From a virus (lineage: Duplodnaviria > Heunggongvirae > Uroviricota > Caudoviricetes), in IMG/VR virus record IMGVR_UViG_2667527849_000007: DNA of 10,260 nucleotides; one strand, written 5' to 3'. Positions 305-10,260 of this stretch are shown piece after piece. The number at the start of each line of letters is the position of its first letter. Position 1 is the stretch's first letter. The position numbers and the translations under genes are program-made. The notes below the pieces were generated by a model. That model worked only from the letters and a program-made list of their open reading frames with translations, searched no databases and was not told the DNA's origin.

Positions 305-645
305 CGACTTTTACCAGAGAGCAGTTAATAGCTCACGCAGAGGAGACTATTGAAGCACAGAGACTGTGCATACCGGGCACAATCGACCATGACATCATCC
401 GCACATATAAGATGGATATTGCTGTTCTGGAAATCGCACTGGTATCGCTGGCAGCAGAGCCAGCCGGTAAATTGCATGAATACAAACCAGTGGGATATCA
501 GCGTCTGGTCGATGAGTTAACCATGCTGGTAAAGCAGTTAACCTGGCAACTGAGGAAAGCGAAGCCAGACTGCAAATTACCGGATAAGGCGATGAGTTAT
601 CTGGAGCGGAACGGACTGATAAGCGTGGAGGATATTTTACGATGA
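301..645 (+). CDS. hypothetical phage protein, 114 aa
   Basis: ORF track 301..645. ATG overlaps the upstream stop. N-terminus MTTFTREQL and internal [10 protein letters not shown] resemble the preceding 55-aa ORF and the 4465-4707 ORF. Function not recognised. Confidence 0.55.
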
Positions 646-725
646 CCTGGCCTGAAGCATTAACAACGGTAGGAATTGCGATGGCGGTGGCGCTGGTGGT
701 GTATTCGATTTGCCGCTGGGGATAA
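642..725 (+). CDS. possible small hydrophobic peptide, 27 aa ([27 protein letters not shown])
   Basis: ATG 642-644 overlaps the TGA stop (643-645) of the upstream ORF. Mostly hydrophobic, consistent with a single transmembrane helix. Very short, so it could be chance. Confidence 0.3.
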
Positions 726-936
726 AAACGGTTTGCGGGAAAAGGAGAGTTAAGTAGAATTGCAGCGGGTGCTTGAGGCTATCTGTCTCAGGCATGAACA
801 CCAAAAGGCAGATAGAGAAAAGCCCCAGTTAACATTACGCGTCCGGCAAGACGCTTAACATTAATCTGAGGCTCAATCTATGAACGGCAAATCTAGGTTA
901 GCCTCTTACGTGCCGAAAGGCAAGGAGAAGCAGGCT

Positions 937-1092
937 ATGAAGCAGCAAAAGGCGATGTTAATCGCCCTGATCGTCATCTGTTTAACCGTCATAGTGACGG
1001 CACTGGTAACGAGGAAAGACCTCTGCGAGGTACGAATTCGAACCGGCCAGACGGAGGTCGCTGTCTTCACAGCTTACGAACCTGAGGAGTAA
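937..1092 (+). CDS. hok: Hok/Gef-family type I toxin (small membrane-depolarising peptide), 51 aa
   Basis: Translation MKQQKAMLIALIVICLTVIVTALVTRKDLCEVRIRTGQTEVAVFTAYEPEE has the Hok/Gef hallmarks: hydrophobic N-terminal helix, TRK.LCE.R motif, EVA.F motif, ~50 aa. AAGGAG at 922-927 lies 9 nt upstream of the ATG. The ORF track extends the same frame to an ATG at 880 (70 aa), so the start is ambiguous. Confidence 0.75.
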   Translation: MKQQKAMLIALIVICLTVIVTALVTRKDLCEVRIRTGQTEVAVFTAYEPEE

Positions 1093-1161
1093 GAGACCAG
1101 GCGGGGGAGAAATCCCTCGCCACCTCTGATGGGTCAGGCATCCTCAATGCACCCACACTTA

Positions 1162-1186
1162 ACCCGCTTCGGCGGGTTTTTGTTTT
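1162..1186 (+). terminator. rho-independent terminator after hok
   Basis: Hairpin ACCCGC-TTCG-GCGGGT followed by TTTTTGTTTTT, about 70 nt downstream of the hok stop. Confidence 0.6.
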
Positions 1187-1312
1187 TATTTTCAACGCGT
1201 TTGAAGTTTTAGATGGTGCCGGAATAGAATCAAAAATACTTAAGTAGCGCGCAGGGAGAAGAGGGATGGACCCCGAACAGGGGAGTGCTATTTATCTGGA
1301 AGGATTCTGTTG

Positions 1313-1594
1313 ATGAAAATCGAAGAATTACGTGAAATTTTTAGTGAAGATGGCCTCTATACTGTGCGCGTTGAGAATGGCGCTATTGTCAGCCACTGCC
1401 TTCCAGACTACACAATTCTGATAATTCAGCCGTCTTTGCCAGCAGGCACGGGCGGCGCTCTCACGCATTTAAATCTGATTGGTACCAGCATCCCCCATGC
1501 ACTGAAGAACAGGCCGAATGGCTCATTCAGTGTTACCGCAGGCGCGGATGCGAGGTTAAAAAAGCCCTTAGCCTCGACTACCGTCACTGGATAA
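1313..1594 (+). CDS. hypothetical phage protein, 93 aa (occupies the position rem holds in Qin-type prophages, identity unverified)
   Basis: ORF track 1310..1594 (TTG then ATG at 1313). GGAAGGA RBS at 1298-1304 with 8-nt spacer. Product not recognised. Confidence 0.45.
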   Translation: MKIEELREIFSEDGLYTVRVENGAIVSHCLPDYTILIIQPSLPAGTGGALTHLNLIGTSIPHALKNRPNGSFSVTAGADARLKKPLASTTVTG

Positions 1595-1669: not shown

Positions 1670-2728
1670 GTGCGGGTATTACTTCGACCTGTTCTGGTAC
1701 CGGAACTCGGTCTGGTTATCGTTAAGCCAGGCCGTGAATCAATGTCAGCATTCCATAACGGCAGAATACTGGTGGAGCCGGAACCAAAAAGCATGCGTAA
1801 TCTGCCGTCCGGGGTCGTTCCTGCCGCTCGCCAGCCGCTGGTGGAAGACAAAACATTGCTGCCGTTTTTCAGTAACGCACGGGTGATTCGTGCTGCTGGT
1901 GGTGCTGGTGCATTGTCTGACTGGCTGTTGCGCCATATTAAATCCTGCCAGTGGCCACACGGCGATTATCATCACAGCGAAACCGTCATTCACCGTTATG
2001 GTACCGGCGCAATGGTGTTGTGCTGGCACTGCGACAACCAGCTGCGTGACCAGACATCCGAATCACTCGAGCAACTTGCTCATCAAAACCTGTCAGCATG
2101 GATGATTGACGTCATCGGTCACGCAATAAGCGGTACGCAGGAGCGTGAATTATCTCTGGCTGAATTATCCTGGTGGGCGGTCCGCAATCAGGTGGCGGAC
2201 GCGCTACCGGAAGCGGTATTACGTCGTTCGCTGGGGTTGCGTGCGGAAAAAATTCGCTCTGTGTACAGTGAAAGCGACATCATACCGGGAGAGCAGACAG
2301 CCACCAGCATACTGAAGCAGCGCACAAAAAATATTGCGTTACTGCCTCACGTCCACCAGCAACAGAACCCACCACAGGAAAAGACGGTGGTCAGCATTGC
2401 CGTTGATCCGGAGTCACCGGCTCAGTATCTCCAGCGCCAGAAATCACAACGGGAAGAGATGCCTGTATACACGCGCTGGGTAAAAACGCAGAAATGCATG
2501 ACGTGTGGCAATCAGGCAGATGATCCGCATCACATCATTGGTCATGGACTGGGAGGGATGGGAACAAAGGCTGATGATTTGTTTGTTATTCCGTTATGCC
2601 GTAAATGCCGTAACGAACTACATGCCGGAGTAAAAGATTTTGAAGAGAAACACGGCAGTCAGCTGTTGTTGCTGATTCGTTTTTTAATGCACGCGAGAAA
2701 TTCGGGTGTTCTGAAGTGGAAAGCATAA
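1670..2728 (+). CDS. DUF968-family phage protein (YdfU-like) with a C-terminal CxxC...HH...CxxC...H motif
   Basis: 352-aa ORF. C-terminus CMTCGNQADDPHHIIGHGLGG...CRKCRNELH resembles an HNH/zinc-ribbon signature. Gene order (this gene, rusA, Q) matches the ydfU-quuQ neighbourhood of Qin-type prophages as I recall it. Start uncertain: GTG 1670 sits only 4 nt after GGAGG; an in-frame ATG at 1742 is an alternative. Confidence 0.7.
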   Translation: MRVLLRPVLVPELGLVIVKPGRESMSAFHNGRILVEPEPKSMRNLPSGVVPAARQPLVEDKTLLPFFSNARVIRAAGGAGALSDWLLRHIKSCQWPHGDYHHSETVIHRYGTGAMVLCWHCDNQLRDQTSESLEQLAHQNLSAWMIDVIGHAISGTQERELSLAELSWWAVRNQVADALPEAVLRRSLGLRAEKIRSVYSESDIIPGEQTATSILKQRTKNIALLPHVHQQQNPPQEKTVVSIAVDPESPAQYLQRQKSQREEMPVYTRWVKTQKCMTCGNQADDPHHIIGHGLGGMGTKADDLFVIPLCRKCRNELHAGVKDFEEKHGSQLLLLIRFLMHARNSGVLKWKA

Positions 2729-3109
2729 ATGACCGAGCGCATAGAATTTGTTTTACCTTACCCGCCGACGGTGAACACTTACTGGCGTCGTCGTGGCAGC
2801 ACATATTTTGTATCAAAAGCCGGGGAGCGTTATCGCCGGGCAGTGGCGCTTATTGTTCGCCAGCAGCGGCTGAAATTAAGCCTGTCCGGAAGGTTGGCAA
2901 TAAAAATTATTGCAGAACCACCGGATAAGCGCCGCCGTGACCTGGACAATATTCTGAAAGCGCCGCTGGATGCGCTGACGCATGCGGGGTTGCTAATGGA
3001 CGATGAGCAGTTTGATGAAATCAATATCGTTCGTGCTCAGCCAGTATCTGGTGGACGTCTGGGGGTGAAGATTTATCCCATAATGCTTGAAGGGCAGGTC
3101 AAAAAATGA
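2729..3109 (+). CDS. rusA: RusA-family Holliday junction resolvase (crossover junction endodeoxyribonuclease)
   Basis: 126 aa. LPYPPTVNTYWRRRG N-terminus and acidic PDKRRRDLDN and LMDDEQ motifs fit the RusA family. ATG abuts the DUF968 stop; stop overlaps the Q start. Confidence 0.85.
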   Translation: MTERIEFVLPYPPTVNTYWRRRGSTYFVSKAGERYRRAVALIVRQQRLKLSLSGRLAIKIIAEPPDKRRRDLDNILKAPLDALTHAGLLMDDEQFDEINIVRAQPVSGGRLGVKIYPIMLEGQVKK

Positions 3110-3497
3110 AACTGGAAGATTTACCGAAATACTACTCCCCAAAATCCCCCGGCCTGACTGATGCATCGGCCTCAACGTCGAAAGATGCGCTGAGTATCAC
3201 TGATGTGATGGCCGCGCAGGGCATGACACAGAATCGGGCTGAGATGGGGGTTTCTGCGTTCCTTGGGAAAATGGGCATTAGTATGAATGACAGAGAGCGG
3301 GCAACAGAATTGCTGACAGAATATGCACTCAGTCGGTGTGATCGCGTGGCGGCGTTAAGAAAACTCCCGGCAGAAATAAAACCGGCAGTGATGCGTATTA
3401 TGGCTTCGTATGCGTTTGAAGATTATGCCCGTAGCGCGGCGAGCAAAAAACAGTGCCCCTGCTGTCACGGAAAAAAATTTATTGAAAGCGAGGTTTT
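3106..3497 (+). pseudogene. Q-like antiterminator, 5' fragment (codons 1-129) truncated by IS2
   Basis: First 129 codons give the same protein as the intact Q at 7002-7823. Sequence diverges after 3497 into IS2 antisense. The track ORF 3106..3870 is a Q/IS2-antisense chimera. Confidence 0.75.
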
Positions 3498-3498
3498 A

Positions 3499-3915
3499 AT
3501 CACAGCAGAACTCGAACCCGTCAGAGCACCATCGCTGATTGCTTTCTTTCACGGCCACTCTGCCTGTATGTGCCCGTTTCGATGGCGGTACAGCAGGTTT
3601 TCGCTCAAGCAACAGCGCATTCTGGCGCATGATCCGGTAAACACGTTTGGCATTGATCGCAGGCATACCATCAAGTTCTGCCTGTCTGCGAAGCAGCGCC
3701 CATACCCGACGATAACCATACGTGGGCAGCTCTCCGATAACATGGTGTATACGGAGAAGCACATCCGTATCATCAGTGTGACGACTGCGGCGGCCATCCA
3801 TCCAGTCATCGGTTCGTCTGAGAATGACGTGCAACTGCGCACGCGACACCCGGAGACAACGGCTGACTAAGCTTACTCCCCATCCCCGGGCAATAAGGGC
3901 GCGTGCGCTATCCAC
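3499..3915 (-). pseudogene. insD: IS2 InsD (transposase OrfB), N-terminal 139 codons only
   Basis: Minus-strand translation [41 protein letters not shown]...[11 protein letters not shown] matches the IS2 InsD N-terminus. Full InsD is about 300 aa; the reading frame ends at the IS2/Q junction. Confidence 0.8.
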
Positions 3916-4238
3916 TTTTTTGCCCGTCCATATTCAACGGCTTCTTTGAGGAGTTCATTTTCCATCGTTTTCTTGCCGAGCAGGCGCTGGAGTTCTTTAA
4001 TCTGCTTCATGGCGGCAGCAAGTTCAGAGGCAGGAACAACCTGTTCTCCGGCGGCGACAGCAGTAAGACTTCCTTCCTGGTATTGCTTACGCCAGAGAAA
4101 TAACTGGCTGGCTGCTACACCATGTTGCCGGGCAACGAGGGAGACCGTCATCCCCGGTTCAAAGCTCTGCTGAACAATTGCGATCTTTTCCTGTGTGGTA
4201 CGCCGTCTGCGTTTCTCCGGCCCTAAGACATCAATCAT
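3873..4238 (-). CDS. insC: IS2 InsC (transposase OrfA), 121 aa
   Basis: Minus-strand translation [56 protein letters not shown]... matches IS2 InsC from memory. The track ORF 3873..4283 carries a 15-codon upstream extension. Confidence 0.85.
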
Positions 4239-4464
4239 CTGTACTCCAATGACTAGTCTAAAAACTAGTATTAAGACTATCACTTATTTAAGTGATACTG
4301 GTTGTCTGGAGATTCAGGGGGCCAGTCTACGGACATTTTCTGCCTGTGGACCAGGAAAGTGCACGGGTGCTTTCCACTCCCATGAAGCCCGGCAATCCGC
4401 GCAGATACAGTAATAAACGAACTGACAGCAGTAAGATGGAGCGTTTCTTTTGAACAACCAGACA

Positions 4465-4707
4465 ATGACTTTTACCTCTGAACAATTGCGTAAACACGCG
4501 CAGGAAATGCTGCGTCATGCTGAACAACTCGAAAAAACGGGCATAACAAAAGACGCTATCCGTAAAGATATGGTACCCGCGCTTCGGGAACTGATGCAGG
4601 CGAAGCATCGCGCACAGAAAGCAGTAGATGAGCTGGTGGACTGTGTGGCAGAGCTGGAAACCAGAGTCGGAAAGTTTGAAAAACTGGTGCAGGAGGTGCT
4701 GCGCTGA
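4465..4707 (+). CDS. hypothetical small phage protein, 80 aa (85 aa if the TTG at 4450 is used)
   Basis: ORF track 4450..4707. Likely start is ATG 4465 (MTFTSEQLRKHAQEM...). N-terminus resembles the ORFs at 137-304 and 301-645. Stop overlaps the rusA' start (TGATG). Confidence 0.5.
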   Translation: MTFTSEQLRKHAQEMLRHAEQLEKTGITKDAIRKDMVPALRELMQAKHRAQKAVDELVDCVAELETRVGKFEKLVQEVLR

Positions 4708-5081
4708 TGCGCCATGAGTTTATTTTACCTTATCCGCCGACGGTGAATACTTACTGGCGACGTCGTGACAACACATATTTTGTATCAAAAGCCGGTGAGC
4801 GTTATCGCCGGGATGTGGCGCTTATTGTCCGTCAGCAGCGACTGAAATTAAGCCTGTCCGGAAGACTGGCGATAAAGATTATTGCAGAGCCACCGGATAA
4901 GCGCCGTCGTGACCTGGACAATATCCTGAAAGCACCACTGGATGCACTGACACATGCGGGAGTGTTAATGGACGATGAGCAGTTTGATGAAATCAATATC
5001 GTTCGTGCTCAGCCAGTATCTGGTGGACGTCTGGGGGTGAAGATTTACCCCATAATGCATGAAGAGCAGGTCAAAAAATGA
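4707..5081 (+). CDS. rusA: RusA-family Holliday junction resolvase, divergent second copy
   Basis: 124 aa, roughly 90% identical to the 2729-3109 copy, with a different N-terminus (MRHEFILPY vs MTERIEFVLPY) and scattered substitutions at both nucleotide and protein level. Confidence 0.8.
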   Translation: MRHEFILPYPPTVNTYWRRRDNTYFVSKAGERYRRDVALIVRQQRLKLSLSGRLAIKIIAEPPDKRRRDLDNILKAPLDALTHAGVLMDDEQFDEINIVRAQPVSGGRLGVKIYPIMHEEQVKK

Positions 5082-5823
5082 AACTGGAAGATTTACCGAA
5101 ATACTACTCCCCAAAATCCCCTTGCCTGACCGATGCATCGGCCTCAACGTCAAAAGATGCGCTGAGTATCACTGATGTGATGGCCGCGCAGGGCATGACA
5201 CAGAATCGGGCTGAGATGGGGTTTTCTGCGTTCCTGGGGAAAATGGGCATCAGTATGAATGACAGGGCGCGGGCAACAGAATTACTGGCAGATTATGCAC
5301 TCAGTCGGTGCGATCGTGTGGCGGCGTTGAGAAAACTTCCGGCAGAAATAAAACCGGTAGTGATGCGCATTATGGCTTCGTACGCTTTTGAGGATTATGC
5401 CCGCAGCGCAGCGAGTAAAAAGCAGTGCCCTTGTTGCTATGGGGAAAAATTTATTGAAAGCGTAGTTTTTACAAACAAGGTCCAGTATCCGGATGGTAAG
5501 CCGCCGGTATGGGCAAAGTGTACGAAAGGTGTGTATCCGTCTTACTGGGAAGAATGGAAAAAAGTCAGGGAGGTGGTAAAAGTTGCCTGTCCGGAGTGTG
5601 GCGGAAAGGGTGAGGTTTCCACCGCCTGTAAGGATTGCCGTGGGCGTGGTGTCGCCATTCATCGTGAAGAGTCGGTAAAACGTGGTATGCCTGTTATCAG
5701 AGACTGCCAGCGTTGTGGTGGTCGTGGCTATGAAAGACTACCATCAACGGAGGCATTTAATGCTATATGCGAGGTGACAAACCAGATAACACGCGCGTCA
5801 TGGGAAAAAACAGTTAAGAAATT
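5078..5823 (+). pseudogene. Q-like antiterminator, mosaic copy truncated at codon ~248 by fusion to the middle of a DUF968 gene
   Basis: The 5' half differs from the other Q copies (SPCLTD, ARATELLADYA, CYGEK); the 3' half from about 5481 is identical to copy 3. At about 5821-5825 the sequence switches to DUF968 sequence (matching 1929 onward), giving the track ORF 5078..6001 an out-of-frame 59-aa tail. The last ~25 Q codons are missing. Confidence 0.6.
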
Positions 5824-6624
5824 ATGCGCCATATTAAATCCTGCCAGTGGCCACACGGCGATTATCATCACAGCGAAACCGTCATTCACCGTTATGGTAC
5901 CGGCGCAATGGTGTTGTGCTGGCACTGCGACAACCAGCTGCGTGACCAGACATCCGAATCACTCGAGCAACTTGCTCATCAAAACCTGTCAGCATGGATG
6001 ATTGACGTCATCGGTCACGCAATAAGCGGTACGCAGGAGCGTGAATTATCTCTGGCTGAATTATCCTGGTGGGCGGTCCGCAATCAGGTGGCGGACGCGC
6101 TACCGGAAGCGGTATTACGTCGTTCGCTGGGGTTGCGTGCGGAAAAAATTCGCTCTGTGTACAGTGAAAGCGACATCATACCGGGAGAGCAGACAGCCAC
6201 CAGCATACTGAAGCAGCGCACAAAAAATATTGCGTTACTGCCTCACGTCCACCAGCAACAGAACCCACCACAGGAAAAGACGGTGGTCAGCATTGCCGTT
6301 GATCCGGAGTCACCGGCTCAGTATCTCCAGCGCCAGAAATCACAACGGGAAGAGATGCCTGTATACACGCGCTGGGTAAAAACGCAGAAATGCATGACGT
6401 GTGGCAATCAGGCAGATGATCCGCATCACATCATTGGTCATGGACTGGGAGGGATGGGAACAAAGGCTGATGATTTGTTTGTTATTCCGTTATGCCGTAA
6501 ATGCCGTAACGAACTACATGCCGGAGTAAAAGATTTTGAAGAGAAACACGGCAGTCAGCTGTTGTTGCTGATTCGTTTTTTAATGCACGCGAGAAATTCG
6601 GGTGTTCTGAAGTGGAAAGCATAA
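5824..6624 (+). pseudogene. DUF968 (YdfU-like) 3' fragment, C-terminal 266 codons with a junction-created ATG
   Basis: Protein identical to the C-terminal portion of the 1670-2728 product. The ATG at 5824 exists only because the junction reads ATTATGCGCC where the full copy reads CTGTTGCGCC. Retains the CxxC/HH motif region. Whether it is translated is unknown. Confidence 0.6.
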
Positions 6625-7393
6625 ATGACCGAGCGCATAGAATTTGTTTTACCTTACCCGCCGACGGTGAACACTTACTGGCGTCGTCGTGGCAGCACAT
6701 ATTTTGTATCAAAAGCCGGGGAGCGTTATCGCCGGGCAGTGGCGCTTATTGTTCGCCAGCAGCGGCTGAAATTAAGCCTGTCCGGAAGGTTGGCAATAAA
6801 AATTATTGCAGAACCACCGGATAAGCGCCGCCGTGACCTGGACAATATTCTGAAAGCGCCGCTGGATGCGCTGACGCATGCGGGGTTGCTAATGGACGAT
6901 GAGCAGTTTGATGAAATCAATATCGTTCGTGCTCAGCCAGTATCTGGTGGACGTCTGGGGGTGAAGATTTATCCCATAATGCTTGAAGGGCAGGTCAAAA
7001 AATGAAACTGGAAGATTTACCGAAATACTACTCCCCAAAATCCCCCGGCCTGACTGATGCATCGGCCTCAACGTCGAAAGATGCGCTGAGTATCACTGAT
7101 GTGATGGCCGCGCAGGGCATGACACAGAATCGGGCTGAGATGGGGGTTTCTGCGTTCCTTGGGAAAATGGGCATTAGTATGAATGACAGAGAGCGGGCAA
7201 CAGAATTGCTGACAGAATATGCACTCAGTCGGTGTGATCGCGTGGCGGCGTTAAGAAAACTCCCGGCAGAAATAAAACCGGCAGTGATGCGTATTATGGC
7301 TTCGTATGCGTTTGAAGATTATGCCCGTAGCGCGGCGAGCAAAAAACAGTGCCCCTGCTGTCACGGAAAAAAATTTATTGAAAGCGAGGTTTT
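5825..7393 (+). repeat. direct repeat copy B, partner of 1929-3497
   Basis: See copy A. Its left boundary is the Q'/DUF968 fusion junction; its right boundary is where copy A is interrupted by IS2. Confidence 0.8.
6625..7005 (+). CDS. rusA: RusA-family Holliday junction resolvase, third copy, identical in protein to 2729-3109
   Basis: Identical 126-aa translation to copy 1, and the antisense shadow ORFs are also identical, implying nucleotide identity. Confidence 0.85.
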   Translation: MTERIEFVLPYPPTVNTYWRRRGSTYFVSKAGERYRRAVALIVRQQRLKLSLSGRLAIKIIAEPPDKRRRDLDNILKAPLDALTHAGLLMDDEQFDEINIVRAQPVSGGRLGVKIYPIMLEGQVKK

Positions 7394-7823
7394 TACAAAC
7401 AAGATCCAGTATCCGGATGGTAAGCCGCCGGTATGGGCAAAGTGTACGAAAGGTGTGTATCCGTCTTACTGGGAAGAATGGAAAAAAGTCAGGGAGGTGG
7501 TAAAAGTTGCCTGTCCGGAGTGTGGCGGAAAGGGTGAGGTTTCCACCGCCTGTAAGGATTGCCGTGGGCGTGGTGTCGCCATTCATCGTGAAGAGTCGGT
7601 AAAACGTGGTATGCCTGTTATCAGAGACTGCCAGCGTTGTGGTGGTCGTGGCTATGAAAGACTACCATCAACGGAGGCATTTAATGCTATATGCGAGGTG
7701 ACAAACCAGATAACACGCGCGTCATGGGAAAAAACAGTTAAGAAATTTTATGATGCGCTGGTGACCCGGTTTGATATTGAAGAAGCATGGGCTGAGCGGC
7801 AGTTAAAAAAGGTAACTAGGTAA
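7002..7823 (+). CDS. Q-like late-gene antiterminator (QuuQ/YdfT-like), the only intact copy, 273 aa
   Basis: N-terminus MKLEDLPKYYSPKSP... Carries CPCCHGKK plus three CxxCxGxG zinc-finger-like repeats (CPECGGKG, CKDCRGRG, CQRCGGRG). Lies directly upstream of a pR'-like promoter and tR'-like terminator and downstream of rusA, as expected for lambdoid Q. Family assignment is from memory. Confidence 0.7.
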   Translation: MKLEDLPKYYSPKSPGLTDASASTSKDALSITDVMAAQGMTQNRAEMGVSAFLGKMGISMNDRERATELLTEYALSRCDRVAALRKLPAEIKPAVMRIMASYAFEDYARSAASKKQCPCCHGKKFIESEVFTNKIQYPDGKPPVWAKCTKGVYPSYWEEWKKVREVVKVACPECGGKGEVSTACKDCRGRGVAIHREESVKRGMPVIRDCQRCGGRGYERLPSTEAFNAICEVTNQITRASWEKTVKKFYDALVTRFDIEEAWAERQLKKVTR

Positions 7824-9494: not shown

Positions 9495-9570
9495 GGCCCT
9501 TTAGCTCAGTGGTGAGAGCGAGCGACTCATAATCGCCAGGTCGCTGGTTCAAATCCAGCAAGGGCCACCA
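9495..9570 (+). tRNA. ileZ: tRNA with CAT anticodon, most likely tRNA-Ile2 (lysidine-modified, reads AUA); tRNA-Met not excluded
   Basis: Hand-folded cloverleaf: acceptor GGCCCTT / AAGGGCC, D-stem GCTC/GAGC, anticodon loop CTCATAA, T-loop TTCAAAT, encoded CCA. Closely resembles E. coli ileX-type tRNA. Symbol by analogy with the ileZ-argN-argO cluster of Stx phages, from memory. Confidence 0.8.
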
Positions 9571-9577
9571 TCACATA

Positions 9578-9654
9578 CCGCCATTAGCTCATCAGGAAAG
9601 AGCGCCAGCCTTCGAAGCTGGCTGCGCGGGGTTCAAGTCCCCGATGGCGGTCCA
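9578..9654 (+). tRNA. argN: tRNA-Arg, anticodon TCG (reads CGA)
   Basis: Acceptor CCGCCAT / ATGGCGG, anticodon stem CCAGC/GCTGG, loop CTTCGAA, T-loop TTCAAGT, encoded CCA. Anticodon read by hand; symbol by analogy only. Confidence 0.75.
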
Positions 9655-9667
9655 TTATCTGCATCAT

Positions 9668-9744
9668 GCGTTGTTAGCTCAGCCGGACAGAGCAATTGCC
9701 TTCTAAGCAATCGGTCACTGGTTCGAATCCAGTACAACGCGCCA
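9668..9744 (+). tRNA. argO: tRNA-Arg, anticodon TCT (reads AGA/AGG)
   Basis: Acceptor GCGTTGT / ACAACGC, anticodon stem ATTGC/GCAAT, loop CTTCTAA, T-loop TTCGAAT, encoded CCA. Symbol by analogy only. Confidence 0.8.
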
Positions 9745-9784: not shown

Positions 9785-10260
9785 AAATGTCTCACAATTC
9801 AGACGGTTGACAGTTGTCTGTTTTGCGGGGAGTTTGTTAAAAGAAACTGGCATGGTGAATCCCCCTGTGCGGAGGGGCAATCAGCGAGTAGGTATATGGG
9901 ATAATCGCGGATTCAGGTGCTGGTACTGAATTCACCGGGAGGCACCCGGCATCATGCAATGGCACATAGCGCCACTCTCCAGCCCTCTCCGGAGGGGCTT
10001 TTCTGTGCCGGATACATCACAGTTTCTGGAACCTTAGGTACTACAGTATCAGTCAGGGTGCTATATTTTCAGATGTGATGAAAGCCTGTCAGCAGGCAGG
10101 GCGTATCGGAAATGACCCAGTAGAGAAAACGTTGACTCAGATACCGGTGCTGAGTTACCGGGAAACCGGCATCACATGACCGCTATCCTGAGGTGTACTG
10201 GCAATAGCGGACACTACCATTTGTTCTTTTTTTAAGCAGCCATCTGATGATATTTTTCCC

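What the first reader, a model, noticed from the sequence alone, without database searches (positions are those of the whole stretch)
780..1186. Hok/Gef-family type I toxin gene embedded in the prophage
The 51-aa product has the Hok/Gef signature and is followed by a clean intrinsic terminator, so it looks like an intact type I toxin locus, not a decayed one. An in-frame upstream ATG at 880 would add 19 residues, unlike the usual out-of-frame mok arrangement. Whether a Sok-like antisense RNA is encoded upstream (about 780-940, minus strand) cannot be decided by eye. If no antisense partner exists, the toxin would have to be controlled another way, for example by phage induction.
Basis: partly seen in the sequence, partly recalled or inferred. 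Interest (0 to 1): 0.55.

Follow-up and report, generated by a model that had tools for sequence, protein, structure and literature searches.

The report
Intact prophage hok/mok/sok toxin-antitoxin locus
This is a complete but ordinary copy of the well-known hok/sok killer module (a small membrane toxin, a leader reading frame and an antisense RNA antidote), which is carried by many lambda-like prophages of E. coli.

Summary
Bases 937-1092 encode a 51-aa Hok/Gef peptide (Pfam 82.9 bits) identical to E. coli K-12 HokD. An in-frame ATG at 880 gives a 70-aa ORF, and an intrinsic terminator lies at 1161-1186.

The in-frame ORF is mok. It has the same layout as the annotated mokW/hokW (phage 933W) and mokC/hokC (K-12), and 26 of 37 related loci are in frame. 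A Sok antisense gene is present on the minus strand at about 888 to 818. Rfam family 'sok' matches 767-942 full length (112 bits). The promoter is TTGCCT-17 nt-TAACCT, and its -10 box is the element whose mutation abolished SokW protection in prophage Sp5. A hairpin plus U-run follows.

The hok mRNA (about 767-1186) carries every hok-paradigm element: tac, ucb, dcb and fbi. The 5'-3' tac/fbi duplex forms in 37/37 homologues, with compensatory changes. Predicted folds of the nascent, full-length and 3'-trimmed RNA reproduce the three known conformations.

This is the untruncated form of K-12 hokD, in the Qin-type position upstream of Q. Similar DNA is found in 4937 of 5426 complete E. coli genomes, and at least 80% of the 601-bp query is matched in 2244. 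Already known; low interest.

The parts
733..760 (+). Putative hok/mok mRNA promoter: -35 TTGCGG (733-738), 16-nt spacer, -10 TAGAAT (755-760), 6 nt before the predicted +1 at 767
   Evidence: Read from the sequence. A -10-like hexamer (TAGAAT, TATAAT or TATATT) sits at the same distance from the GGG(T/C)GCTTG start in the homologues. The generic promoter scan did not call it, because the -35 matches only 3 of 6. Inferred, not shown.
767..1186 (+). Full-length hok (mok-hok) mRNA, about 420 nt
   Evidence: Rfam RF01794 model position 1 aligns at 767 and the terminator ends at about 1186. MFE -169.2 kcal/mol, z -6.76 against shuffles.
767..778 (+). tac (translational activator element), GGGUGCUUGAGG, at the 5' end of the mRNA
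   Evidence: Pairs with fbi in the full-length fold, with ucb in the 3'-trimmed fold, and with 785-795 in the nascent leader as a metastable hairpin. Invariant in 78 phage loci.
820..826 (+). ucb / anti-SD (AAGCCCC)
   Evidence: Pairs with the mok SD in the full-length fold and in the RNAalifold consensus, and with tac in the trimmed fold. Invariant in 78 phage loci.
818..888 (-). Predicted Sok antisense RNA, about 71 nt: single-stranded 5' tail, long hairpin (874 to 820), then U-rich tail (UUUUCUCU)
   Evidence: Positional homologue of the annotated sokW of 933W. It overlaps the mok start by 9 nt, as sokC overlaps mokC in K-12. Fold -32.9 kcal/mol, z -5.5. The hairpin is conserved with compensatory changes in 36 distinct homologous rows. 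The ends are inferred, not mapped.
895..923 (-). sok promoter: -35 TTGCCT (923 to 918), 17-nt spacer, -10 TAACCT (900 to 895)
   Evidence: Sequence. The position is conserved in all 37 loci, with TTG of the -35 invariant. The sense-strand TAGGTTA was replaced by CCGGCTC in the Sp5 'pro-less' construct, which lost SokW protection (primers YO-421/422). The generic scan did not call it, because the -10 matches 3 of 6.
868..871 (+). mok Shine-Dalgarno sequence (GAGG), 8 nt before the mok ATG
   Evidence: Sequence. Sequestered by ucb in the closed fold and in the SD/dcb target hairpin in the open fold.
880..1092 (+). mok reading frame, 70 codons, in frame with hok and sharing its stop codon
   Evidence: Same layout as mokW/hokW and mokC/hokC. 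In frame in 26 of 37 homologues.
883..894 (+). Hypervariable patch: mok codons 2-5, which is the loop of the Sok-target hairpin, the first 6 nt of Sok, and the 6 nt between the sok -10 and +1
   Evidence: Heterozygosity 0.34 against a locus mean of 0.088. There are 17 alleles of the 41-nt stretch 866-906 among 78 loci (77 phage contigs plus the window) that encode the identical HokD. The window's allele AACGGCAAATCT occurs in 7 of the 78.
901..905 (+). dcb (GCCUC), which pairs with the mok SD region (GAGGC) to close the Sok-target hairpin
   Evidence: Rfam consensus structure and the trimmed-RNA fold.
903..909 (+). CUCUUAC box, paired long-range with GUAAGAG (1089-1095, spanning the hok stop codon)
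   Evidence: RNAalifold pairs at columns 141-147 with 328-336. Six of the seven pairs are invariant in 37 sequences and one shows a single A-U to G-U change, so the pairing is conserved but shows no compensatory covariation. Also present in the MFE fold.
924..927 (+). hok Shine-Dalgarno sequence (GGAG), 9 nt before the hok ATG
   Evidence: Sequence. Homology with the truncated K-12 hokD begins here, at about 923.
937..1092 (+). hok (hokD-type) toxin gene, 51 aa
   Evidence: Pfam HOK_GEF 82.9 bits. The protein is identical to K-12 HokD. PGAP annotates homologous loci as 'type I toxin-antitoxin system toxin HokD'.
1070..1084 (+). Small hairpin CAG-CUUACGAAC-CUG that presents the TadA editing motif TACG (1075-1078). 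Editing of A1076 would recode Tyr47 (TAC) to Cys.
   Evidence: The stem pairs covary (C-G 22 / U-A 14; G-C 22 / A-U 13) and TACGAA is invariant. K-12 hokD mRNA, which has the same sequence here, is edited by TadA (PMC5630033).
1100..1121 (+). Stable 3'-UTR hairpin (GGCGGGGGA...UCCCUCGCC), the likely 3' end structure of the processed, translatable mRNA
   Evidence: Present in the folds. Conserved with some compensatory changes (columns 342-349 with 361-368). Its role is inferred from plasmid R1 (PMC9841398).
1142..1154 (+). fbi (fold-back inhibitory element), CCUCAAUGCACCC, complementary to tac with one bulged U
   Evidence: 5'-3' duplex in the MFE fold. A 12-bp duplex forms in 37 of 37 homologues, always ending 57-69 nt after the hok stop, with compensatory U-A to C-G and G-C to A-U changes.
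1161..1186 (+). Intrinsic terminator of the hok mRNA
   Evidence: Terminator scan. Identical in K-12 Qin.

Best explanation
Bases 733-1186 are a complete hok/mok/sok type I toxin-antitoxin locus of the hokD/hokW kind. It sits in the early-right (nin) region of a lambdoid prophage, upstream of the Q antiterminator.

Proposed mechanism, by homology with plasmid R1 hok/sok and Sp5 hokW-sokW:
- A weak promoter makes a stable mRNA of about 420 nt. Its 5' end (tac, 767-778) is clamped to a 3' element (fbi, 1142-1154). In this closed form the mok ribosome-binding site is hidden by ucb, and neither ribosomes nor Sok can bind.
- Slow 3' trimming removes fbi. tac then switches to ucb, which exposes the mok start in a hairpin loop.
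- In the lysogen, the short-lived antisense Sok RNA (888 to about 818, minus strand) binds there. This blocks mok translation, and with it the coupled hok translation, and the duplex is cut.
- When Sok supply stops (loss of the element or, as shown for Sp5, prophage induction), mok and hok are translated. The 51-aa Hok inserts into the inner membrane, depolarises or lyses the cell, and may aid phage release.

Shown here: the presence, integrity and conservation of every sequence and structure element. Inferred: transcription, processing, toxicity control and physiological role.
For: - Toxin: Pfam HOK_GEF 82.9 bits. The protein is identical to K-12 HokD and differs at 4 of 51 residues from HokW of 933W.
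- Regulatory RNA: Rfam RF01794 matches full length at 767-942, 112.4 bits against a gathering score of 59, E 1.5e-25. A control on K-12 hokC shows that this model lies on the hok strand across the annotated sokC. The truncated K-12 hokD gives no hit.
- Sok: positional homologue of the annotated sokW. Promoter TTGCCT-17 nt-TAACCT is conserved in position in 37 loci. Its -10 box is the element mutated in the Sp5 construct that lost protection. The hairpin plus U-run has z -5.5 and shows compensatory pairs.
- mRNA switch: the full-length fold gives tac/fbi and ucb/SD. The trimmed RNA gives tac/ucb and the SD/dcb target hairpin. The nascent leader gives the metastable tac hairpin. These match the R1 model summarised in PMC9841398.
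- Conservation: the tac/fbi duplex forms in 37/37 loci from Escherichia, Kluyvera, Photorhabdus, Pantoea and Citrobacter, with compensatory changes.
- Function of a close homologue: HokW is toxic, SokW neutralises it, SokW disappears and HokW appears on mitomycin C induction, and deletion halves phage release (PMC8621323).
- Context: flanking phage genes are DUF968/HNH, RusA, Q and a methyltransferase. The order hokD-rem-DUF968 (ydfU)-Q is shared with Qin of K-12; the window additionally has RusA between DUF968 and Q.
Against: - There are no expression data for this sequence. The Sok ends, mRNA ends and 3' processing are inferred by homology.
- The generic sigma-70 scan called neither the hok nor the sok promoter at its threshold. 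The sok -10 TAACCT matches 3 of 6 and the hok -35 matches 3 of 6.
- NCBIfam Hok models score below their cut-offs (48.5 against 73), although Pfam is far above its own.
[quoted passage not shown] An intact sequence therefore does not prove an active killer.
- The experimentally studied hokW lies at a different place in its phage, near the right end, so its induction-linked behaviour may not transfer.
Confidence: 0.9

Rival explanations
1. The locus is intact in sequence but physiologically silent. It would be a passenger relic that is transcribed and kept off permanently, with no killing, maintenance or lysis role, as was concluded for several chromosomal hok loci.
For: [quoted passage not shown] Copies are numerous and often decayed: K-12 hokD is truncated, L009 lacks tac, L051 is frameshifted, and L018, L020 and L034 have defective mok.
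Against: Every regulatory element here is intact. tac, ucb and the sok -35 are invariant in 78 loci (77 phage contigs plus the window), which suggests purifying selection on the RNA switch. The close homologue hokW-sokW has a measurable phenotype on induction.
Confidence: 0.15
2. This is a toxin without an antisense partner, controlled only by phage induction.
For: The generic promoter scan found no minus-strand promoter in 650-1350.
Against: Rfam 'sok' matches full length. The sok promoter position is conserved in all 37 loci, and the same -10 box was shown to be needed for protection in Sp5. The Sok hairpin and U-run are conserved with compensatory changes.
Confidence: 0.03
3. The 70-aa in-frame product (19 extra N-terminal residues plus all of Hok) is the real or a second toxin isoform, rather than mok serving only as a translational coupler.
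For: Because mok is in frame, its translation necessarily yields an N-terminally extended Hok. The in-frame layout is the majority, 26 of 37.
Against: Close relatives with identical or near-identical Hok have mok in the +1 frame (8 of 37). These include the Rac-type locus annotated with separate mok and hok stop codons. In addition, 11 of 78 loci in the phage set carry a 2-nt deletion in the patch that shifts the frame. In R1, only mok translation up to the hok start matters, not the Mok product (PMC9841398).
Confidence: 0.07

Closest known systems
hokW-mokW-sokW of Stx2 phages 933W / Sp5 (E. coli O157:H7)
   Same: About 93% DNA identity over window 700-1164. It has the same 213-nt mok and 156-nt hok sharing a stop codon, sok at the same position overlapping the mok start by 9 nt, the same sok -10 TAACCT, and the same tac, ucb and fbi. 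It has been shown experimentally to be a type I TA.
   Different: Four C-terminal residues of Hok differ. The mok codon 2-5 / Sok 5'-end patch is a different allele (CTGAACACATGT against AACGGCAAATCT). Homology ends after fbi, so 933W lacks the window's terminator sequence. The position in the phage also differs: near the right end in 933W, and in the nin region upstream of Q here.
hokD (relF) of the Qin cryptic prophage, E. coli K-12
   Same: The Hok protein is identical. The DNA is nearly identical from window position 923 to about 1410, including the 3' UTR, fbi, the terminator and the start of rem. The gene order hokD-rem-DUF968 (ydfU)-Q is the same.
   Different: In K-12 everything upstream of the hok SD is replaced by relB-relE. 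There is no tac, ucb, mok, sok or sok promoter, and no Rfam sok hit. The window carries the untruncated, presumably ancestral, form.
hokC (gef)-mokC-sokC, E. coli K-12 chromosome
   Same: mok is in frame with a 19-codon extension and a shared stop codon, and sokC overlaps the mok start by 9 nt. Rfam sok scores 118 bits. The tac, fbi, ucb and dcb framework is the same in hokC-type loci of other Escherichia.
   Different: Hok is 82% identical and 50 aa long. The Sok hairpin is shorter: the window has about 18 extra nt in its loop. hokC is chromosomal rather than on a prophage. In K-12 an IS186 lies next to it.
hok/mok/sok (parB) of plasmid R1
   Same: This is the paradigm for the mechanism: tac/fbi closed form, 3' processing, tac/ucb open form, a metastable nascent hairpin, mok-coupled hok translation, Sok acting at the mok start, and RNase III cleavage. 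In R1, mok is likewise 70 codons with 19 codons upstream of the hok start.
   Different: HokW, which differs from the window's Hok at 4 of 51 residues, is only 44% identical to R1 Hok. mok is out of frame in plasmid-type loci (annotated example). R1 is carried on a plasmid, where its role is post-segregational killing.

Membership tests
hok/sok (Hok/Gef) type I toxin-antitoxin family | Hok/Gef toxin peptide of about 50 aa (PF01848) with an N-terminal transmembrane helix and a conserved Cys | tested here: met
   Pfam HOK_GEF 82.9 bits against a cut-off of 22, covering profile positions 1-42 of 42. The protein is identical to K-12 HokD.
hok/sok (Hok/Gef) type I toxin-antitoxin family | A mok reading frame with its own SD that starts upstream of hok and overlaps it | tested here: met
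   ATG 880 lies 8 nt after GAGG and opens a 70-codon ORF that reads through the hok start. An ATG is aligned at the same site in 36 of 37 homologues.
hok/sok (Hok/Gef) type I toxin-antitoxin family | A cis-encoded Sok antisense RNA gene (promoter, 5' tail, terminator hairpin) complementary to the mok translation initiation region | tested here: met
   Rfam RF01794 112.4 bits, full length, with an orientation control. Promoter TTGCCT-17-TAACCT. Hairpin plus U-run, z -5.5, with compensatory pairs. This is sequence-level evidence only.
hok/sok (Hok/Gef) type I toxin-antitoxin family | Long-range 5'-3' tac/fbi pairing that locks the full-length mRNA | tested here: met
   Present in the MFE fold and the RNAalifold consensus. 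A 12-bp duplex forms in 37 of 37 loci with compensatory changes at positions 4, 11 and 12.
hok/sok (Hok/Gef) type I toxin-antitoxin family | Alternative pairings (ucb/SD against tac/ucb plus SD/dcb; metastable nascent hairpin) that give a processing-dependent switch | tested here: met
   Predicted folds of 767-1186, 767-1128 and 767-942 give the three expected conformations. These are thermodynamic predictions, not structure probing.
hok/sok (Hok/Gef) type I toxin-antitoxin family | Sok RNA is actually transcribed, is unstable, and neutralises Hok; Hok kills when Sok is absent | not testable with these tools
   Shown for the homologue hokW-sokW (PMC8621323) but not for this sequence.
hok/sok (Hok/Gef) type I toxin-antitoxin family | 3'-end processing of the hok mRNA to a translatable truncated form | not testable with these tools
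   Only the conserved 3' hairpin (1100-1121) and fbi placement (57-69 nt after the stop codon) are consistent with it.
hokD subgroup (as named by NCBI PGAP) | Protein identical or near-identical to K-12 HokD/RelF, located in a lambdoid nin region next to rem, DUF968 and Q | tested here: met
   51 of 51 residues identical to K-12 HokD. Synteny. The best E. coli hits are annotated hokD.

The most novel reading that the evidence does not exclude
The 12-nt patch right after the mok ATG (883-894) covers the loop of the Sok-target hairpin and the first nucleotides of Sok. It may be under diversifying selection, so that the several lambdoid prophages sharing one cell each carry a private Sok/hok recognition allele and do not cross-protect each other's toxins. 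It is the most variable stretch inside the locus: heterozygosity 0.34 against a mean of 0.088, with 17 alleles of the surrounding 41 nt among 78 loci encoding the identical HokD. The flanking tac, ucb and sok -35 are invariant. In the two genomes checked, the three co-resident loci had three different alleles. That is about what chance would give, by my own hand estimate, so the idea is untested.
Probability: 0.35. Interest if true: 0.3.

Novelty: already known. Interest (0 to 1): 0.08.

Why it matters
It matters little as a discovery. hok/sok loci in lambdoid prophages have been annotated since the 933W genome (mokW/hokW/sokW). They were tested experimentally in 2021 (PMC8621323) and are reported to be enriched in prophages (bioRxiv 10.1101/2025.08.07.668861).

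There are two practical points:
- Standard annotation (PGAP) marks only the hokD CDS in such loci, and not mok, sok or the mRNA elements. The map given here fills that gap for this window.
- This locus shows what the truncated K-12 hokD looked like before relBE replaced its control region.

Tried and rejected
- The generic promoter scan found neither the hok nor the sok promoter. I rejected it as decisive, because both have weak hexamers and the sok -10 box was shown to be needed in Sp5.
- NCBIfam naming gave only below-cut-off Hok/HokA hits and added nothing beyond Pfam.
- The literature search for hokD/sokD/mokD returned mostly unrelated words.
- Column-wise counting of tac/fbi pairs 7-12 on the MAFFT alignment was abandoned. 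The bulged nucleotide shifts the register between clades, so I computed per-sequence duplexes instead.
- The first regular expression for fbi matched GCAACG just after the stop codon. It was corrected.
- I considered whether the Rfam 'sok' hit on the + strand meant a sense-strand sRNA. I rejected this after the K-12 hokC control showed that the model is built on the hok-leader strand.
- I considered the 70-aa ORF as the true toxin. This is judged unlikely because the mok frame is not conserved among close relatives.
- I did not run structure prediction or the large protein searches, because the answer did not depend on them.

Full report
**Observation.** The window holds a 51-codon ORF at 937-1092 (+). 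An in-frame ATG at 880 extends it to 70 codons. A terminator-like hairpin (1161-1178) is followed by a T-run. The 51-aa product matches Pfam HOK_GEF at 82.9 bits (cut-off 22) over the full profile. It is residue-for-residue identical to HokD of E. coli K-12.

**How common it is.** Bases 700-1300 find similar DNA in 4937 of 5426 complete E. coli genomes, and at least 80% of the query is matched in 2244. The median is 2 places per genome and the maximum 11. The gene under the match is annotated hokD. Seventy-eight phage records also match. Among them is phage 933W, whose record annotates mokW, hokW and the antisense sokW. In IMG/VR at least 576 stretches encode a relative, and the best 80 all encode the identical 51-aa protein.

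**The in-frame ATG is mok.**
- In 933W, mokW (213 nt) and hokW (156 nt) share a stop codon.
- In K-12, mokC and hokC do the same, with a 19-codon extension.
- Among 37 related loci from Escherichia, Kluyvera, Photorhabdus, Pantoea, Citrobacter and others, the aligned mok ATG lies 57 nt upstream and in frame in 26. It lies 58 nt upstream (+1 frame) in 8 and is defective in 3.
- An annotated IncF plasmid locus shows the out-of-frame layout.

In-frame mok is therefore the usual state in this clade. The frame flips among close relatives, which fits the R1 finding that mok translation matters and the Mok product does not (PMC9841398).

**Sok is present.**
- Rfam RF01794 ('sok') matches 767-942 on the + strand, full length, at 112.4 bits against a gathering score of 59.
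- A control on K-12 shows that this model is built on the hok-leader strand. It hits the hokC/mokC strand across the oppositely annotated sokC. The truncated K-12 hokD gives no hit.
- Aligning to 933W places Sok on the minus strand from 888 to about 818, overlapping the mok start by 9 nt, exactly as sokC overlaps mokC.
- Upstream on the minus strand lie TTGCCT (923 to 918), a 17-nt spacer and TAACCT (900 to 895). This arrangement is conserved in position in all 37 loci.
- In Sp5, replacing the sense-strand TAGGTTA by CCGGCTC gave the 'pro-less' construct, which lost protection. Protection was partly restored by sokW in trans (PMC8621323).
- The predicted RNA has a free 5' tail, a long hairpin and a U-rich tail (-32.9 kcal/mol, z -5.5). 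The hairpin keeps pairing through compensatory changes.

**The hok mRNA switch is complete.**
- The full-length RNA (767-1186) folds with its first 12 nt (tac) paired to 1142-1154 (fbi). The mok SD is paired to AAGCCCC (ucb) (z -6.8).
- The RNA trimmed to 1128 refolds. tac pairs with ucb, and the SD region pairs with dcb to form the Sok-target hairpin.
- The nascent leader forms a tac hairpin with 785-795.
- These are the three conformations of the R1 paradigm.
- RNAalifold on 37 loci independently predicts the 5'-3' pairing, ucb/SD, a CUCUUAC/GUAAGAG long-range helix across the hok stop codon, and sequestration of the hok start.
- A 12-bp tac/fbi duplex forms in 37/37 loci. It shows U-A to C-G and G-C to A-U compensations, and fbi always ends 57-69 nt after the stop codon.

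**Relation to K-12 hokD.** K-12 Qin has relB-relE-hokD-rem-ydfU-Q. Homology with the window starts at about 923, just at the hok SD. K-12 therefore lacks tac, ucb, mok, sok and the sok promoter. The window carries the untruncated form in the same prophage position. Its neighbours are phage genes: DUF968/HNH, RusA, Q and a methyltransferase.

**Mechanism and role.** By homology, the locus should work as described under the best explanation. For the homologue in Sp5, several steps have been shown:
- HokW is toxic and goes to the inner membrane.
- SokW neutralises it, helped partly by RNase III and Hfq.
- SokW vanishes and HokW appears after RecA-dependent induction.
- Deleting the locus delays growth arrest and halves phage release.

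Whether this transfers to the nin-region copy is inference. Here hok is co-oriented with the surrounding early-right genes. Read-through transcription from pR on induction would therefore be convergent with sok. This is my hypothesis and is untested.

**Caveats.** There are no expression data for this sequence. The generic promoter scan missed both weak promoters. Older tests of chromosomal hok loci found no post-segregational killing.

**Verdict.** This is an intact but ordinary hok/mok/sok locus, and it is already known. The two features that made the finding look unusual are not: in-frame mok is normal in this clade, and a Sok gene is present.

Noticed in passing
window 1929-3497 and 5825-7393 (context 1670-7823): There is a perfect 1569-bp direct repeat, and the late-regulation module occurs three times: DUF968/HNH (1670-2728), RusA (2729-3109) and a hybrid Q (3106-3870); then a transposase fragment (3873-4283, minus strand); then RusA (4707-5081, 90% identical) and a Q fused or overlapping with a DUF968 C-terminal fragment (5078-6624); then RusA (6625-7005) and Q (7002-7823). 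The closest complete E. coli genomes have this module only once. It is either a real IS- or recombination-driven mosaic, or an assembly artefact among co-resident lambdoid prophages.
   Followed up: partly
window 883-894: This hypervariable 12-nt patch (mok codons 2-5, loop of the Sok-target hairpin, Sok 5' end) has 17 alleles of the surrounding 41 nt among 78 loci (77 phage contigs plus the window) with the identical HokD protein. The neighbouring tac, ucb and sok -35 are invariant. It may set Sok specificity. Some alleles carry a 2-nt deletion that shifts the mok frame.
   Followed up: partly
window 1070-1084 (TACG at 1075-1078): The Tyr47 codon TAC sits in a TACG motif in the loop of a small covarying hairpin. 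K-12 hokD mRNA, with the same sequence, is edited A-to-I by TadA, which recodes this Tyr to Cys (PMC5630033). The toxin made from this locus may therefore be a mixture of Tyr47 and Cys47 forms.
   Followed up: partly
window 642-725 (+): A 27-codon hydrophobic ORF ([27 protein letters not shown]) overlaps the stop codon of the upstream 114-aa ORF in an ATGA junction, just before the hok promoter. The same ORF start lies upstream of hokW in Sp5, since primer YO-432 contains ATGACCTGGCCTGAAGC. It has no PHROG match and its function is unknown.
   Followed up: no
window 9495-9744 and 9821-10010 (+): Three tRNA genes lie downstream of Q and the methyltransferase. ARAGORN calls them Met(CAT), Arg(TCG) and Arg(TCT). 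PGAP calls the first one tRNA-Ile in a homologous prophage, so it is probably a lysidine-type tRNA-Ile2. They are followed by a full-length Rfam STnc100 match at 123.6 bits. This looks like the tRNA cluster of the Stx-phage-type late region.
   Followed up: no
window 1201-1230 and 1313-1594 (+): A promoter-like site (TTGAAG-18-TAGAAT) lies just after the hok terminator and is nearly identical in K-12. It precedes a rem-like ORF that matches K-12 rem only for about its first 30 codons and then diverges into unrelated sequence. PHROG 340 matches only residues 1-30.
   Followed up: no
L009, L018/L020, L034, L051 (related loci): Decayed relatives illustrate how these loci break down. L009 lacks the tac motif, L018 and L020 have a 1-nt deletion that truncates mok to 19 codons, L034 has ATA instead of the mok ATG, and L051 (Shigella) has a frameshifted hok.
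   Followed up: no
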